From the NCBI GenBank assembly GCA_937911045.1, contig CALEPX010000004.1:17421-81420 (forward strand): a DNA stretch of 64,000 nucleotides. Reading direction: 5' to 3'. This DNA comes from an uncultured Fretibacterium sp. (GTDB lineage: Bacteria; Synergistota; Synergistia; Synergistales; Aminobacteriaceae). The translations under genes were made by a program, and so were the position numbers. A model generated the notes under the pieces. That model was not told the origin of the DNA. It was given only the letters and a program-made list of their open reading frames with translations, and searched no databases. Position 1 is the first letter of the stretch; every line of letters starts with the position of its first letter. This document shows positions 57,290 through 59,388 of this stretch, one piece after another.

Positions 57290-57508
57290 TTAAGCCTCCT
57301 CGTCACCAAAAGTTTTCTTAATTTCCGCGATAATTTCTGGTGAGACGTTCTTTCGAGTCAAAAACGCTGCGATTTTTTCTACAGTTTGTGAGCGAGCACT
57401 ATCGAACCCCTGAAAATAACCGTCAGTCCATTCCAAAAATGACGTTACTTTCGGATTATCTTTCCATTTCTCTTTCATTTTTTGTAGCTCTTCATATTCG
57501 TCTGACAT
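57290..57508 (-). CDS. 72-aa protein paralogous to the C-terminal domain of the adjacent Rpn-family nuclease (RpnS-like antitoxin candidate)
   Basis: SD AGGAGTGG lies 7 nt upstream. SFLEWTDGYFQGF...TVEKIAAFLTRKNVSPEIIAEI aligns with SFIEEWIEESENKGF...TLDEVAALLRQKGISPEIISEL of the 315-aa protein. Confidence 0.7.
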   Translation of the reverse strand: MSDEYEELQKMKEKWKDNPKVTSFLEWTDGYFQGFDSARSQTVEKIAAFLTRKNVSPEIIAEIKKTFGDEEA

Positions 57509-57535
57509 TTTTTTCCACTCCTATTTCAAACAAAC

Positions 57536-57754
57536 TTACCTGAGTTCAGAAATAATTTCCGGTGATATTCCCTTCTGCCTCAAAAGTGCTGCAACCTCGT
57601 CCAAAGTTTCTGCACGTCCCTCTGCACGACCTTCCGAACGCCCCATTGTGAAACCTTCCGAACGTCCTTCTGAACGTCCTTCTGAACGTCCTCTCATAAA
57701 ACCTTTGTTTTCGCTTTCTTCGATCCATTCCTCGATAAAAGATTTTTCCAGCAT
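57536..57754 (-). CDS. Candidate intragenic ORF giving a 72-aa C-terminal fragment of the Rpn-family protein, from an internal in-frame ATG
   Basis: GGGAGGAG (57770-57763) lies 8 nt upstream of the in-frame ATG at 57754. Confidence 0.4.
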   Translation of the reverse strand: MLEKSFIEEWIEESENKGFMRGRSEGRSEGRSEGFTMGRSEGRAEGRAETLDEVAALLRQKGISPEIISELR

Positions 57755-58483
57755 CTTGTTTTCTCCTCCCAAATTACTCTTAAATTTCTCAAATTCAAGC
57801 TTGAGTTCCTCGTCTCTGAGCCTGATTATCTGACCAACAAACATCAAAATATCCCGTCGATCTTGAATATTCCAGCCCCTGTTATTCAGTAACACAGCGA
57901 CTTCCTTCAAGTACGAGAATTTCTTGAACTCTTTCTCTCGCGTGAATCCGTTGTAATCCCTGAATTTCTTCGCAACGTAAATAATCGGATCAAACAGGTT
58001 ATTGCCACTCAATAATTCTTTGTCATTTTGAGCGTACACTTCGAAAACATTGTAAACATACCTGTGTTGCGTTCCGTACTGGTCGAACTCGTAAATTCCG
58101 GGTGTCTCGCGTTTAGGACGTTTGTGCGTGAGAATCGCCAGAGCAATCGGCATCTTGTGATAGTGCGCGAATATCAGACAGCAGTACAGCATCATTCGCC
58201 ACGAAATATCACGATTACCTTTCCCCTGAACTTCTATGTGCAGCAAAACCCACTCAGCTTCACCCGTCTTCAACTGAATCTCTACCAGCTCATCAACGTG
58301 AAGCGAAGATTTATGCTCATCAGAATTTTGCAAAGTGTCCTGCAGCTCCTGACTCAAAAATTTCGGCGCAATCGTGAAATCTGCATCGTGATAAAGCTCC
58401 GGAATAGTCTTCAGAACCAACTCCGGCAAAAATCTCCTGATACATTGTTTCCACCAAGCATCATGATCAAATTCTTCACACAT
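57536..58483 (-). CDS. Rpn/YhgA-family PD-(D/E)XK recombination-promoting nuclease / putative transposase
   Basis: HDAWWKQCIRRFLPEL N-terminus, HVDELVEIQ and VLLHIEVQGK (a D...E-x-Q core), MMLYCCLI, and (R-S/A-E-G)n repeats before the C-terminal domain. Confidence 0.75.
   Translation of the reverse strand: MCEEFDHDAWWKQCIRRFLPELVLKTIPELYHDADFTIAPKFLSQELQDTLQNSDEHKSSLHVDELVEIQLKTGEAEWVLLHIEVQGKGNRDISWRMMLYCCLIFAHYHKMPIALAILTHKRPKRETPGIYEFDQYGTQHRYVYNVFEVYAQNDKELLSGNNLFDPIIYVAKKFRDYNGFTREKEFKKFSYLKEVAVLLNNRGWNIQDRRDILMFVGQIIRLRDEELKLEFEKFKSNLGGENKMLEKSFIEEWIEESENKGFMRGRSEGRSEGRSEGFTMGRSEGRAEGRAETLDEVAALLRQKGISPEIISELR
57609..57692 (-). repeat. Seven tandem 12-nt units encoding (R-[SA]-E-G)-type tetrapeptides
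   Basis: ccttccgaacgt/ccttctgaacgt/tctgcacgtccc units on the + strand. The protein reads RSEGRSEGRSEGFTMGRSEGRAEGRAET. Confidence 0.85.
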
Positions 58484-59388
58484 TACTTTACCTCCAGAAA
58501 TTTTCTGACAGCCTCGAATTTTTCACGCGCTTCTGACTGAGCAGCTTCGATTTGTGACGGGAATAATTTTTCGCCGAATTTCTTGAGTTGAGAATTTGCT
58601 GCACCATCGCCGCATAAATCCGCGAGATAATACCAGACATACGCCCGAAAATTATCCTGCTGAACATGTTCGCCGTGCTGGTACATCCAACCCAGATTAT
58701 ATTGCGCAACCGAATCGCCCTTCATCGCCAATTCCTGAAAATTTTCGAACTCGTGCTTCAAACGTTCCTGAATCTTCGCGTAGATTTTCCCTGCTTCAGA
58801 CTGAGCTTCCAGAGCTTCTGACGGTGAAATTGTTTTCTTACGTTCGAGTTTCTTGCATTTTTTCGCAGCCAAGCCGTGACCAGACATAGTCGCAACATAA
58901 TACCACATGTAAGCGTTTCGATTCTGAGCTTTCAAAGCATAATGTTCAGCGAGTGAATATTGTGAAGCTGCATCACCGGTCTCAGCGTTTGCGATCTCGT
59001 TTTTCGAGACAGGACGTAATTGCAAAATCACAAACGGAATAGCCGAGAGAAAATATAGAGGGAAAATAAATTTTAAGGCGTCTTCTCCGAACTTGAACCA
59101 TAGCACGGCAAAAACGCAAATGTCCACGACGAACATAATTCCGAATGAGATTAAGTAAGTGTTTACGGGGGGACGTTTCCGTTCGATATTTCCCGAACTG
59201 ACAGGGACAAATTTCTCTTTCTGCTCCGGGGATTTTCTCAGGGAATTTTTCACGAAATCCGAGAACTTCACCAACACACGGCGCAATCCCGGGAATATTA
59301 TCAACGTCACGCCGAATAACGACGCTGCGACAATTTCAACGCCGTATTTCTTCAAGCCTGCACAAAATATTTCTGAGAACGTTTCCAT
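58483..59388 (-). CDS. Membrane-anchored Sel1-repeat protein
   Basis: Three TM helices in the N-terminal 125 aa, then two Sel1 repeats (ASQYSLAEHYALKAQNRNAYMWYY, AQYNLGWMYQHGEHVQQD). Its stop overlaps the Rpn start (TAATG). Confidence 0.7.
   Translation of the reverse strand: METFSEIFCAGLKKYGVEIVAASLFGVTLIIFPGLRRVLVKFSDFVKNSLRKSPEQKEKFVPVSSGNIERKRPPVNTYLISFGIMFVVDICVFAVLWFKFGEDALKFIFPLYFLSAIPFVILQLRPVSKNEIANAETGDAASQYSLAEHYALKAQNRNAYMWYYVATMSGHGLAAKKCKKLERKKTISPSEALEAQSEAGKIYAKIQERLKHEFENFQELAMKGDSVAQYNLGWMYQHGEHVQQDNFRAYVWYYLADLCGDGAANSQLKKFGEKLFPSQIEAAQSEAREKFEAVRKFLEVK

What the first reader, a model, noticed from the sequence alone, without database searches (positions are those of the whole stretch)
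57290..59388. Three-gene cassette (Sel1 membrane protein, Rpn nuclease, 72-aa protein) embedded and translationally coupled inside an Mrp antiporter operon
Mrp/Mbh membrane-module genes are normally contiguous. Here E-F-G-MbhD (60651-59410) and B-C-D-D (57283-52908) are separated by three unrelated same-strand genes with operon-like junctions. There are 21 nt with GGGAGG before the Sel1 gene, a TAATG overlap from Sel1 into Rpn, 27 nt before the 72-aa ORF, and 6 nt before mnhB. The SD for mnhB lies in the end of the 72-aa ORF. I see no inverted repeats, integrase or target duplication, so this is not an obvious recent insertion element. The cassette may be hitch-hiking on the operon promoter, or it may link a nuclease module to membrane energetics.
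Basis: partly seen in the sequence, partly recalled or inferred. Interest (0 to 1): 0.65.

Follow-up and report, generated by a model that had tools for sequence, protein, structure and literature searches.

The report
Swappable toxin-antitoxin slot inside Mrp operon
The three extra genes are real, but they are two layers: a Sel1-repeat membrane gene found at this spot in most of the related Synergistaceae operons I sampled, followed by a probable Rpn nuclease toxin with its small antitoxin-like partner, sitting where relatives carry other toxin-antitoxin pairs or nothing.

Summary

The interpretation needs revising, because the "cassette" is two layers.

1. The 301-aa Sel1-repeat (SLR) membrane protein belongs to a set of SLR genes. 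These occupy the mbhD|mnhB junction in most of the sampled Synergistaceae mrp operons.

2. The 315-aa protein is a divergent Rpn/DUF4351-type PD-(D/E)XK nuclease.
- It has conserved D64, E84 and Q86.
- It has an internal start (Met244) preceded by a strong SD.
- It has four-residue repeats whose number varies between close relatives.
- The 72-aa ORF is a diverged copy of its C-terminal "RpnS" domain.
- Together these match the published RpnL/RpnS/RpnSs toxin-antitoxin architecture, although the protein scores below the curated Rpn model thresholds.

In relatives, the position downstream of the SLR gene holds YefM-YoeB, an 89-aa protein plus a PIN protein, a DUF559 endonuclease, or nothing. Some relatives also lack the SLR gene or have an entirely empty slot. 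Near-identical genomes differ only there, with breakpoints in the flanking mrp sequence.

My reading is an intra-operon hotspot where selfish toxin-antitoxin modules hitch-hike and are exchanged by homologous recombination. I do not think it links a nuclease to membrane energetics. No function was tested. Interest is moderate.

The parts
59677..60651 (-). First half of the Mrp-type operon: mnhE (60651-60313), mrpF (60389-60018) and mnhG (60018-59677).
   Evidence: Pfam MNHE at 4e-24, MrpF_PhaF at 6e-13 and PhaG_MnhG_YufB at 1.5e-21. An AT-rich stretch with promoter-like sites lies upstream at about 60716-60835.
59410..59676 (-). mbhD (88 aa), the left border of the variable slot.
   Evidence: Pfam MbhD at 5.6e-22. 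In L050 versus L051 the left recombination breakpoint lies in the last codons of this gene.
58483..59388 (-). Sel1-like-repeat (SLR) membrane protein of 301 aa. It has three hydrophobic segments at about residues 17-35, 77-98 and 105-124. These are followed by an internally duplicated SLR-plus-helix unit (residues 135-211 versus 221-299).
   Evidence: Pfam Sel1 at 2.2e-6 and 28.5 bits, below the 30.7 cut-off. Hydropathy, and the internal duplication at 35% identity and E 5e-13, are. It is 30-43% identical over the SLR region to the SLR proteins that fill the same slot in relatives. Only two homologues exist among 5.8 billion proteins. dN/dS is 0.47-0.50.
57536..58483 (-). Rpn/DUF4351-type PD-(D/E)XK nuclease-like protein (RpnL-like, 315 aa), the putative toxin.
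   Evidence: D64, H82, E84, R96 and Y100 are invariant and Q86 is nearly invariant in 39 homologues. hhalign against an NCBI-named Rpn protein gives 98% probability and E 1.4e-13. The N-terminal domain is about 25% identical to cyanobacterial plasmid DUF4351 proteins. Ten of 39 family members weakly match PF04754. dN/dS is 0.13-0.23. The AF2 model has pLDDT 81.
57536..57754 (-). Predicted internal ORF for RpnS (72 aa, from Met244). Its ATG is at 57754-57752 and the SD GGGAGGAG is at 57770-57763.
   Evidence: The SD lies 8 nt upstream of the internal ATG. The Met and a purine-rich SD are conserved in L001-L004, and the Met is conserved in nearly all family members. In L004 this same unit also exists as a free-standing 61-aa ORF.
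57611..57694 (-). Four-residue (12-nt) repeats, GRSE/GRAE, within the RpnL/RpnS region.
   Evidence: A 12-nt tandem repeat family lies at 57630-57689. The window protein has 16 residues (four repeats) more than P0001, which is otherwise 95% identical in the A1 alignment. The repeat number varies throughout the family.
57290..57508 (-). 72-aa ORF, an RpnSs-like free-standing diverged copy of the Rpn C-terminal domain. It is the putative second antitoxin or specificity partner.
   Evidence: Residues 27-64 are 39% identical to Rpn residues 278-315. It is the only other hit of a family RpnS profile among 760 window ORF segments, at E 1.4e-4. The same holds among 10,021 ORF segments of all loci, at E 0.006. 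dN/dS is 0.32. It has only one real homologue among 1.8 billion representatives. The AF2 model is four helices.
56339..57283 (-). MbhE+MnhB fusion gene (314 aa, TTG start), the right border of the slot. Its SD GAGGAGG at 57301-57295 lies inside the 72-aa ORF.
   Evidence: Pfam MnhB at 1e-21 and MbhE at 2e-9. The right breakpoint of the module swaps lies at the SD of this gene in L050/L051 and L052/L053.
52908..56336 (-). Rest of the operon: mnhC (56336-55899), mrpD-like 1 (55902-54397) and mrpD-like 2 (54410-52908).
   Evidence: Pfam Oxidored_q2 at 1e-21 and Proton_antipo_M at 6e-54. NCBIfam antiporter subunit D models match.

Best explanation
The mbhD|mnhB junction of the Mrp-type antiporter operon is an accessory-gene slot in this rumen/gut Synergistaceae clade. 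The slot has two layers.

Layer 1 is one or two Sel1-like-repeat genes with a signal peptide or membrane anchor. They are old residents of the junction and evolve quickly. In the window this layer is the 301-aa, three-TM version.

Layer 2 lies between the SLR gene and the mnhB ribosome-binding site. It is a replaceable selfish module, usually a toxin-antitoxin pair. In the window it is an Rpn-type system, and I infer that it works as follows:
- The full-length 315-aa protein (RpnL-like) is a PD-(D/E)XK DNA endonuclease toxin.
- A 72-aa RpnS is translated from the internal start at Met244. It shares the four-residue-repeat helix with RpnL and neutralises it by hetero-oligomerisation.
- The downstream 72-aa ORF is a diverged free-standing copy of that domain (RpnSs-like). 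It acts as a second antitoxin or specificity partner.

The module has no promoter or terminator signals that I could detect, so it is probably read through from the operon promoter. It spreads and is replaced by homologous recombination in the conserved flanking mrp sequence, not by transposition.

Shown here: gene anatomy, homology, conserved motifs, repeat variation, the presence/absence and swap polymorphisms with their breakpoints, and purifying selection.

Inferred, not shown: toxicity, antitoxin action, any phage-defence role, co-transcription, and the absence of a functional tie to Mrp.
For: Anatomy and junctions.

Rpn assignment:
- D64, E84 and Q86 are conserved in 39 homologues.
- hhalign gives 98% probability against an NCBI-named Rpn/PF04754 protein.
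- The N-terminal domain is homologous to cyanobacterial DUF4351 proteins.
- Distant hits carry PF14261, PF12784 and PF04754.
- An internal Met244 with an SD is conserved in five loci.
- There is a 16-residue (four-repeat) difference from a homologue that is 95% identical in the A1 alignment, and repeat number varies throughout the family.
- The 72-aa ORF resembles the Rpn C-terminus.
- L004 carries an extra 61-aa free-standing RpnS copy and a swapped Rpn C-terminus.
- All of these features are the ones described for RpnL/RpnS/RpnSs in Zhong et al. 2023 (PMC10400941).

Contents of the slot in relatives:
- SLR + YefM-YoeB in L005, L006, L007 and L052.
- YefM-YoeB alone in L051, against an empty slot in L050, which encodes an identical MnhB protein.
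- SLR + DUF559 in L053/L054.
- SLR + an 89-aa protein + PIN_3 in L055-L059.
- SLR only in L060-L065.
- Two SLR genes + an 80-aa ORF in L066.
- Empty in L029 and in all Clostridia homologues.

Breakpoints lie in the mbhD 3' end or the SLR 3' end on the left, and at the mnhB SD on the right. The flanks are 98-99.6% identical.

Other support:
- No TIR, TSD or integrase.
- Native composition.
- dN/dS of 0.13-0.50, with dS of 0.17-0.28 against 0.27-0.74 for the flanking mrp genes, at or below the low end of their range.
- No internal terminators.
Against: - The Rpn-like protein fails the curated thresholds of PF04754 and TIGR01784.
- Part of the hhalign score comes from the low-complexity repeat region.
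- Foldseek gave no significant match for either model. The best E-value was 0.14, although several of the weak hits are restriction-type nucleases.
- The similarity between the 72-aa ORF and RpnS is weak (17 bits) and covers only its C-terminal half. The ORF lacks the four-residue repeats.
- PADLOC models do not recognise any of the three proteins.
- Nothing here shows transcription, translation from Met244, toxicity or neutralisation.
- The SLR gene's persistence at this junction, often with a stop/start overlap with mbhD, could mean it does serve the Mrp complex.
- Only about 15 distinct Synergistaceae loci were sampled. The choice between one ancient insertion followed by swaps and repeated independent insertions is therefore unresolved.
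Confidence: 0.62

Rival explanations
1. The Sel1-repeat protein, and possibly the whole insert, is a lineage-specific accessory part of the Mrp complex. It could be a membrane-anchored scaffold or assembly factor. The genes would then sit in the operon because they function with it.
For: An SLR gene occupies the slot in most of the sampled Synergistaceae lineages, and its predicted start overlaps or directly abuts the end of mbhD in L055, L057, L060 and L064. The SLR proteins carry a signal peptide or TM anchor, as expected for something that meets a membrane complex. The window gene is under purifying selection, although weakly, at dN/dS 0.47-0.50.
Against: The gene is absent from L029, from L050/L051 and from all Clostridia operons that have the same subunit set. 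SLR length ranges from 79 to 451 aa, copy number from 0 to 2, repeat number from 1 to 7, and anchoring varies between signal peptide, single TM and three TM. The window version has only one homologue besides itself in 5.8 billion proteins. The downstream modules are classic selfish toxin-antitoxin pairs of unrelated families.
Confidence: 0.15
2. The nuclease module is functionally wired to the antiporter. Toxin activation or expression would be coupled to ion or pH stress through co-transcription with mrp, so the location is selected and not merely tolerated.
For: Zhong et al. report that RpnA-L and RpnA-S dissociate at high pH, that RpnA-L activity rises at high pH, and that RpnP2 gives better phage protection at alkaline pH. 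Mrp antiporters serve alkaline and Na+ homeostasis (established knowledge). Several unrelated toxin modules are found in the same slot, and the junctions are tight.
Against: The link is purely circumstantial. The modules in the slot belong to unrelated mechanistic classes: an RNase-type toxin (YoeB), a PIN protein, and DNases. Near-identical strains exist with and without a module. In L048/L049 the operon is simply broken at this point, which argues for a tolerant boundary and against a selected platform.
Confidence: 0.1
3. The Rpn-like gene and the 72-aa ORF are decaying remnants of an old insertion, with no current toxin-antitoxin activity.
For: The protein scores below threshold against the curated Rpn models. 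The 72-aa ORF is an orphan that lacks the repeats. No structural match was found.
Against: The reading frames are intact in three diverged genomes, with dN/dS of 0.13-0.32 at dS of about 0.2-0.3. The catalytic residues, the internal SD and the Met are all conserved. More than 70 full-length homologues exist across Synergistaceae.
Confidence: 0.1

Closest known systems
RpnL/RpnS(/RpnSs) intragenic toxin-antitoxin, anti-phage systems (E. coli RpnA-E and RpnP2; YpaA = RpnE-Ss; Zhong et al. 2023, PMC10400941)
   Same: - An N-terminal PD-(D/E)XK-type domain with a D...E-x-Q motif.
- A C-terminal small domain preceded by an internal SD and ATG.
- Four-residue repeats about 20 residues after that Met, whose number varies between close relatives.
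- A diverged small copy encoded just downstream, plus evidence of C-terminus shuffling in L004.
- No inverted repeats or target duplications.
   Different: - The protein is below the curated thresholds of PF04754, TIGR01784 and DUF4351, so it forms a separate family. Its full-length close homologues come mostly from unnamed metagenome contigs, and the few that are named are Synergistaceae or Fretibacterium.
- The downstream copy lacks the repeats and has a novel N-terminal half.
- The module sits inside an operon for a membrane complex and has no promoter signals that I could detect. It is not in a defence island or on a plasmid.
- No function was tested.
Chromosomal hotspots for defence or toxin-antitoxin systems between conserved core genes (for example the P. 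aeruginosa core defence hotspots, PMC10250203; toxin-antitoxin acquisition and erosion in Photorhabdus, PMC13617665)
   Same: A fixed position bounded by conserved genes holds different, unrelated toxin-antitoxin or nuclease modules in related genomes, with empty-site alleles. Turnover happens without recognisable mobility genes.
   Different: The slot is only 0.6-2.3 kb, holds one module at a time, and is co-oriented with its neighbours. It lies between two subunit genes of one operon, with junctions of 6-30 nt, and not between independent transcription units. No flanking palindrome duplication of the kind reported in Photorhabdus was seen at the window locus.
Mrp (Mnh/Pha) and Mbh-type multisubunit cation/proton antiporter operons
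   Same: The subunit set is E, F, G, MbhD, MbhE+B, C, D, D. All match the Pfam models, and the order is the same as in the Clostridia homologues.
   Different: In this Synergistaceae clade the operon is usually interrupted between MbhD and MbhE/B. In one lineage (L048/L049) it is physically split there.
Type II toxin-antitoxin pairs YefM-YoeB and VapB-VapC (PIN)
   Same: They occupy the identical slot in sister lineages. They are small, two-gene, co-oriented modules, present or absent between near-identical strains.
   Different: The window module is a DNase-type Rpn system with a gene-within-gene antitoxin, not a classical two-gene type II pair.

Membership tests
Rpn family (PF04754 Transposase_31 / TIGR01784 / COG5464) | Match to the curated family models above their cut-offs. 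| tested here: not met
   PF04754 gives E 0.011 and 15.8 bits against a cut-off of 21. TIGR01784 gives 22.1 bits against 52.1, over the C-terminal part only. Ten of 39 family members match PF04754 weakly, with a best E of 2.4e-4.
Rpn family (superfamily-level homology) | Profile-level homology of the whole protein to bona fide Rpn or DUF4351 proteins. | tested here: met
   hhalign of A1 against P0093 (NCBI name 'Rpn family recombination-promoting nuclease', PF04754) gives 98% probability and E 1.4e-13 over 264 columns. tblastn aligns residues 6-224 at about 25% identity to cyanobacterial plasmid 'DUF4351 domain-containing proteins'.
RpnL/RpnS toxin-antitoxin (Zhong et al. 2023) | PD-(D/E)XK catalytic residues (D ... 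E-x-Q/K) conserved. | tested here: met
   D64, H82 and E84 are invariant and Q86 is at least 90% conserved in 39 sequences down to 20% identity.
RpnL/RpnS toxin-antitoxin (Zhong et al. 2023) | Restriction-endonuclease-like fold of the N-terminal domain. | tested here: inconclusive
   The AF2 model has pLDDT 81. Foldseek against the PDB found no hit with E below 0.1. The weak hits include MspJI, PaqCI, Cap4, NucS/EndoMS, AspBHI and BamHI.
RpnL/RpnS toxin-antitoxin (Zhong et al. 2023) | An internal translation start producing the C-terminal small protein (RpnS). | tested here: met
   This is met at the sequence level only. The ATG is at 57754-57752 with GGGAGGAG 8 nt upstream. The Met and a purine-rich SD are conserved in L001-L004 and the Met across the family. 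Translation itself cannot be tested here.
RpnL/RpnS toxin-antitoxin (Zhong et al. 2023) | Four-amino-acid repeats near the start of RpnS, varying in number among close relatives. | tested here: met
   GRSE/GRAE repeats start about 21 residues after Met244. The window protein has 315 aa against 299 aa for P0001, a difference of four repeats. Repeat number varies widely in the family.
RpnL/RpnS toxin-antitoxin (Zhong et al. 2023) | A downstream free-standing small homologue (RpnSs, like YpaA). This feature is optional for the family. | tested here: met
   The 72-aa ORF is 39% identical over 38 aa to the Rpn C-terminus. Profile E-values are 1.4e-4 and 0.006, with no other hits. The L004 61-aa ORF is a strong copy at E 5e-18. 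The match for the 72-aa ORF is weak and partial.
RpnL/RpnS toxin-antitoxin (Zhong et al. 2023) | RpnL toxicity and DNase activity, neutralisation by RpnS, and phage defence. | not testable with these tools
   This needs expression, biochemistry and phage assays.
Sel1-like repeat proteins (PF08238) | Sel1 repeats above the Pfam gathering score. | tested here: not met
   The window protein scores 28.5 bits against 30.7, from a single repeat. However, it has an internal duplicated SLR-like unit and BLASTP similarity to bona fide SLR proteins in the same slot, with E-values of 1e-7 to 1e-10.
Mrp/Mbh-type antiporter operon | The subunit families E, F, G, MbhD, MbhE/B, C (NuoK-like) and D (NuoL/M/N-like) in one co-oriented cluster. 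| tested here: met
   All Pfam hits are above their cut-offs, and NCBIfam subunit models match. The order is the same in 40 or more homologous loci.
Insertion sequence, transposon or integron cassette | Terminal inverted repeats, target-site duplication, a transposase or integrase, or an attC-like site at the boundaries. | tested here: not met
   No boundary repeats were found. The one 15-nt junction repeat (57278-57292 and 58471-58485) is not conserved in L004. There is no recombinase ORF. Swap breakpoints lie in conserved flanking coding sequence.
Known anti-phage defence systems (PADLOC-DB v2) | Match to a defence-system protein model. | tested here: not met
   No hits for the SLR or Rpn-like proteins, and only a chance-level hit (E 0.014) for the 72-aa ORF.

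The most novel reading that the evidence does not exclude
The mbhD|mnhB junction would be a selected expression platform and not merely a tolerated gap. Toxin-antitoxin and nuclease modules would be inserted there so that their stoichiometry or activation tracks transcription of an ion- and pH-homeostasis operon. This would couple abortive-infection-type or stress responses to membrane energetics. It fits the reported activation of Rpn toxins at alkaline pH, and it leaves open that the co-resident membrane SLR protein acts as sensor or scaffold. If true, this would be a new organisational principle: defence modules embedded within, and regulated by, a bioenergetic operon.
Probability: 0.1. Interest if true: 0.75.

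Novelty: new variant of a known kind. Interest (0 to 1): 0.45.

Why it matters
- It turns an odd-looking 'nuclease inside an antiporter operon' into a testable case of an intra-operon hotspot. One short position between two subunit genes carries at least four unrelated toxin or nuclease modules, or none, across a single bacterial family. Near-identical genomes differ only there.
- It shows that selfish toxin-antitoxin modules can live inside a tightly packed operon and be exchanged by recombination in the flanking genes.
- It adds a divergent family to the Rpn gene-within-gene toxin-antitoxin class. The family's close, full-length homologues were found mostly on unnamed metagenome contigs, and the few named ones are Synergistaceae. 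It includes a natural example (L004) of RpnS-domain shuffling.
- For annotation, about 75 'hypothetical' proteins can be labelled Rpn-like. The 72-aa orphan gets a rationale.
- It does not by itself reveal a new mechanism.

Tried and rejected
- **Mobile-element reading.** I searched for terminal inverted or direct repeats around the cassette. One 15-nt repeat lies at the Sel1/Rpn and orf72/mnhB junctions, but it is not conserved in L004. I rejected it as chance.
- **Recent foreign acquisition.** GC, GC3 and codon adaptation are typical of the genome, and dS of the cassette is not higher than that of the flanking mrp genes. Rejected.
- **A gene split by insertion.** NCBIfam PRK12507 and PRK12504 model MbhD fused to MbhE/MnhB. 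I therefore considered that the insert had split a fused gene. In all Clostridia and Synergistaceae homologues, however, MbhD and MbhE/MnhB are separate genes, and the 76-aa N-terminal extension of MnhB is conserved. Rejected.
- **Structure-based confirmation.** Foldseek of the Rpn-like model and of the 72-aa model against the PDB gave nothing significant. A profile search of PDB sequences also gave nothing.
- **Exhaustive search with the 72-aa protein.** It found only its orthologue, plus two spurious repeat-protein hits, one to BRCA2 repeats and one to an SLH domain.
- **Defence-system models.** PADLOC gave no hits.
- **Phage records.** No homologue of the Rpn-like protein was found.
- **Literature.** I found nothing on mrp operons carrying toxin-antitoxin modules, or on Synergistaceae Mrp.

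
Full report
**1. The observation**

The minus strand of 52.9-60.7 kb carries a co-oriented gene string: mnhE, mrpF, mnhG, mbhD, a 301-aa ORF, a 315-aa ORF, a 72-aa ORF, mbhE/mnhB, mnhC and two mrpD-like genes. All the Mrp assignments pass the Pfam cut-offs.

- 21 nt containing GGGAGG before the 301-aa ORF.
- A TAATG overlap into the 315-aa ORF.
- 27 nt with GGAG before the 72-aa ORF.
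- 6 nt before the TTG start of mnhB, whose GAGGAGG lies in the last codons of the 72-aa ORF.

No boundary repeats or recombinase genes are present. No convincing internal terminators or strong promoters are present. Base composition and codon usage are typical for the window.

**2. What the three genes are**

*The 301-aa protein.* It has three hydrophobic segments and a strongly basic loop. These are followed by a soluble domain made of an internally duplicated unit, 35% identical at E 5e-13. That unit contains one Sel1 repeat scoring just below threshold. Apart from itself, the protein has a single homologue (84% identical) among 5.8 billion proteins.

*The 315-aa protein.* It has no curated family hit. 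It has about 75 full-length homologues, mostly on unnamed metagenome contigs. The few that carry a source name are Synergistaceae or Fretibacterium. More distant hits carry DUF4351, PDDEXK_2 or Transposase_31 domains.
- In an alignment of 39 of these, D64, H82, E84, R96 and Y100 are invariant and Q86 is nearly so. This is the D...E-x-Q signature of YhgA/Rpn-type PD-(D/E)XK nucleases.
- Profile comparison with a protein that NCBI names as Rpn family gives 98% probability.
- The N-terminal 220 residues align with cyanobacterial plasmid 'DUF4351 domain-containing' proteins.
- The AF2 model is confident (pLDDT 81). It has no significant PDB neighbour, and the weak ones are mostly restriction-type nucleases.

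The C-terminal part shows the hallmarks that Zhong et al. 2023 (PMC10400941) described for Rpn toxin-antitoxin systems.
- An internal Met (Met244, ATG 57754-57752) is preceded at 8 nt by GGGAGGAG. Both are conserved in homologues down to 49% identity.
- About 21 residues later there is a run of four-residue repeats (GRSE/GRAE; 12-nt DNA repeats).
- The number of these repeats differs by four between the window and a homologue that is 95% identical in the alignment. It varies throughout the family.

*The 72-aa ORF.* It is 39% identical over 38 residues to the extreme C-terminus of the 315-aa protein. A profile of the family's RpnS region finds it as the only other hit in the window (E 1.4e-4 among 760 ORF segments). 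The same is true in all fetched loci (E 0.006 among 10,021 segments).

That corresponds to the 'RpnSs' small homologues encoded downstream of some rpn genes, such as YpaA.

The relative L004 shows the process in action. Its Rpn has a different C-terminus, and the original RpnS unit survives as a free-standing 61-aa ORF ahead of the 72-aa ORF.

Otherwise the 72-aa protein is an orphan. Its four-helix model matches nothing.

All three genes are under purifying selection relative to L001 and L004. dN/dS is 0.47-0.50 for the Sel1 gene, 0.13-0.23 for the Rpn-like gene and 0.32 for the 72-aa ORF. Their synonymous divergence (0.17-0.28) is no higher than that of the surrounding mrp genes (0.27-0.74).

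**3. The comparative picture changes the interpretation**

Homologous mrp operons were collected in three ways: from a genome collection, from a metagenome collection, and by looking up contigs that encode MnhB orthologues.

In every Clostridia homologue, mbhD and mnhB are adjacent, 0-30 nt apart. In Synergistaceae, where MnhB is 68-90% identical, the junction is usually occupied, and the contents differ:

| Loci | Contents of the mbhD\|mnhB slot |
|---|---|
| window, L001, L004 | SLR + Rpn + 72-aa ORF |
| L005, L006, L007, L052 | SLR + YefM + YoeB |
| L051 | YefM + YoeB only |
| L050 (MnhB protein identical to L051) | empty |
| L053, L054 | SLR + DUF559 endonuclease-like gene |
| L055-L059 | SLR + 89-aa protein + PIN_3 |
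| L060-L065 | SLR only (159 or 451 aa) |
| L066 | two SLR genes + 80-aa ORF |
| L029 | empty, 6-nt spacer |
| L048, L049 | operon physically broken here, with divergent ilvC/ilvD upstream of mnhB |

Wherever a slot holds anything besides the toxin-antitoxin pair, its first gene is a Sel1-repeat protein with a signal peptide or membrane anchor.

So the 'cassette' is two layers. The first is a long-standing but fast-evolving SLR gene. The second is a replaceable module downstream of it.

**4. How the module turns over**

L050 and L051 are 98-99% identical on both sides. They diverge from the last codons of mbhD to the SD of mnhB.

L052 and L053 are 99.6% and 97.9% identical on the two sides. They diverge from the 3' end of the SLR gene to the same mnhB SD.

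There are no duplicated target sequences. The simplest mechanism is allelic replacement by homologous recombination in the conserved mrp flanks. This agrees with the statement by Zhong et al. that rpn genes move without defined ends.

A concatenated Mrp tree places the empty-site locus L029 with the YefM-YoeB lineages, and places the window clade outside that group. Whether there was one ancient insertion followed by swaps and losses, or repeated independent insertions, cannot be decided with this sample.

**5. Most likely function**

Layer 2 in the window is an Rpn-type toxin-antitoxin module. It comprises a DNase toxin (RpnL-like), an intragenic antitoxin (RpnS from Met244), and a diverged extra copy (the 72-aa ORF).

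It is probably read through from the operon promoter, because no internal promoter or terminator signals were detected. The tight junctions keep mnhB translated.

The position is probably tolerated because it is a natural gene boundary of the complex: MbhD and MbhE are separate subunits in Mbh-type systems. Toxin-antitoxin addiction may slow the loss of the module.

A functional tie to membrane energetics is not supported, given how diverse the modules are and that strains exist without them. One published fact keeps it alive as a low-probability reading: Rpn toxins become more active at alkaline pH, the condition that Mrp systems buffer.

A role for the SLR protein with the Mrp complex remains possible.

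**6. Novelty and verdict**

The Rpn gene-within-gene toxin-antitoxin system, the RpnSs copies, and chromosomal hotspots for toxin-antitoxin and defence systems are all known.

What is new:
- A divergent Rpn-like family, whose close, full-length homologues were found mostly on unnamed metagenome contigs, with the few named ones being Synergistaceae.
- A hotspot located inside an operon, between two subunit genes of a membrane complex. I found no paper describing this for mrp.

The finding is real. I rate the interest as moderate.

Noticed in passing
L004:6579-7994: In the red-deer MAG relative, the Rpn gene has a different C-terminus (...NMNAVVEALASKGMSPDFIAEIREICMKRS). The window-type RpnS unit persists as a separate 61-aa ORF (7537-7722) ahead of the 72-aa ORF. 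That gives three RpnS-like units in a row, a natural example of RpnS-domain shuffling.
   Followed up: partly
L050:4687-5001 and L051:4106-5001: Two assemblies (GCA_018396375.1 and GCA_017455725.1) encode an identical MnhB protein and have 98-99% identical flanks. They differ by the presence or absence of YefM-YoeB in the slot. Both also lack mnhE/F/G upstream of mbhD and have two Tim44-domain genes there instead.
   Followed up: partly
L048:3840-5948 and L049:3840-5948: In the lineage whose MnhB is closest to the window after the 90% clade (77% identity), mnhB-C-D-D is preceded by divergently transcribed ilvC and ilvD genes. The operon is therefore physically split exactly at the slot. I did not look for the location of the E-F-G-MbhD half.
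   Followed up: no
L053:4462-4985: The DUF559 (Vsr-like endonuclease) gene that fills the slot is preceded by about 180 nt containing GC-rich palindromes, for example CCCCCCTCGCCAGCTTTAAGCTGGCCTCTCCCCCC. A GC-rich hairpin also follows yoeB in L051. These could be terminators or REP-like elements carried with the modules.
   Followed up: no
window:56339-57283 (residues 1-76 of MnhB): The MbhE/MnhB fusion protein has a hydrophilic N-terminal extension of about 76 aa (…NFFNWVMGNG…PPDLPFTQK…). This extension matches no NCBIfam antiporter subunit-B model, yet it is conserved in Synergistaceae and in Anaerotignum and other Clostridia homologues.
   Followed up: partly
window:35290-36414 (-): A second Sel1-repeat protein (374 aa) with a signal peptide, a Ser-rich linker, SLR-like repeats and a further C-terminal region. 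It is unrelated in context to the mrp slot.
   Followed up: no
L029:3283-3935; L060-L064 upstream of the ACT gene (e.g. L062:1768-2418, L064:697-1355): Additional PIN/VapC-type pairs with a Phd-like or other small antitoxin sit just upstream of the mrp operon in several relatives. The whole neighbourhood, not only the slot, seems to collect toxin-antitoxin modules.
   Followed up: no
L005:5043-5327: The yoeB gene in this goat-rumen MAG ends at a TAG where L006 has TGG (…AGAATGTAG… against …AGAATGTGG…). This shortens the toxin by four residues and may be early erosion of the toxin.
   Followed up: no
L052:4884-4983: A run of N and a duplicated 55-nt stretch lie at the start of mnhB. This is a scaffolding artefact in the public contig, not biology.
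   Followed up: yes
window:62207-63949 (-) and L001:1862-4321: A large LonC-type (AAA_32/Lon_C) protease gene lies three genes upstream of the operon, beyond an HhH-GPD gene and a CDP-alcohol phosphatidyltransferase gene. In the window the listed ORF (580 aa) is shorter than the L001 orthologue (819 aa), so the true start probably lies beyond the window end.
   Followed up: no
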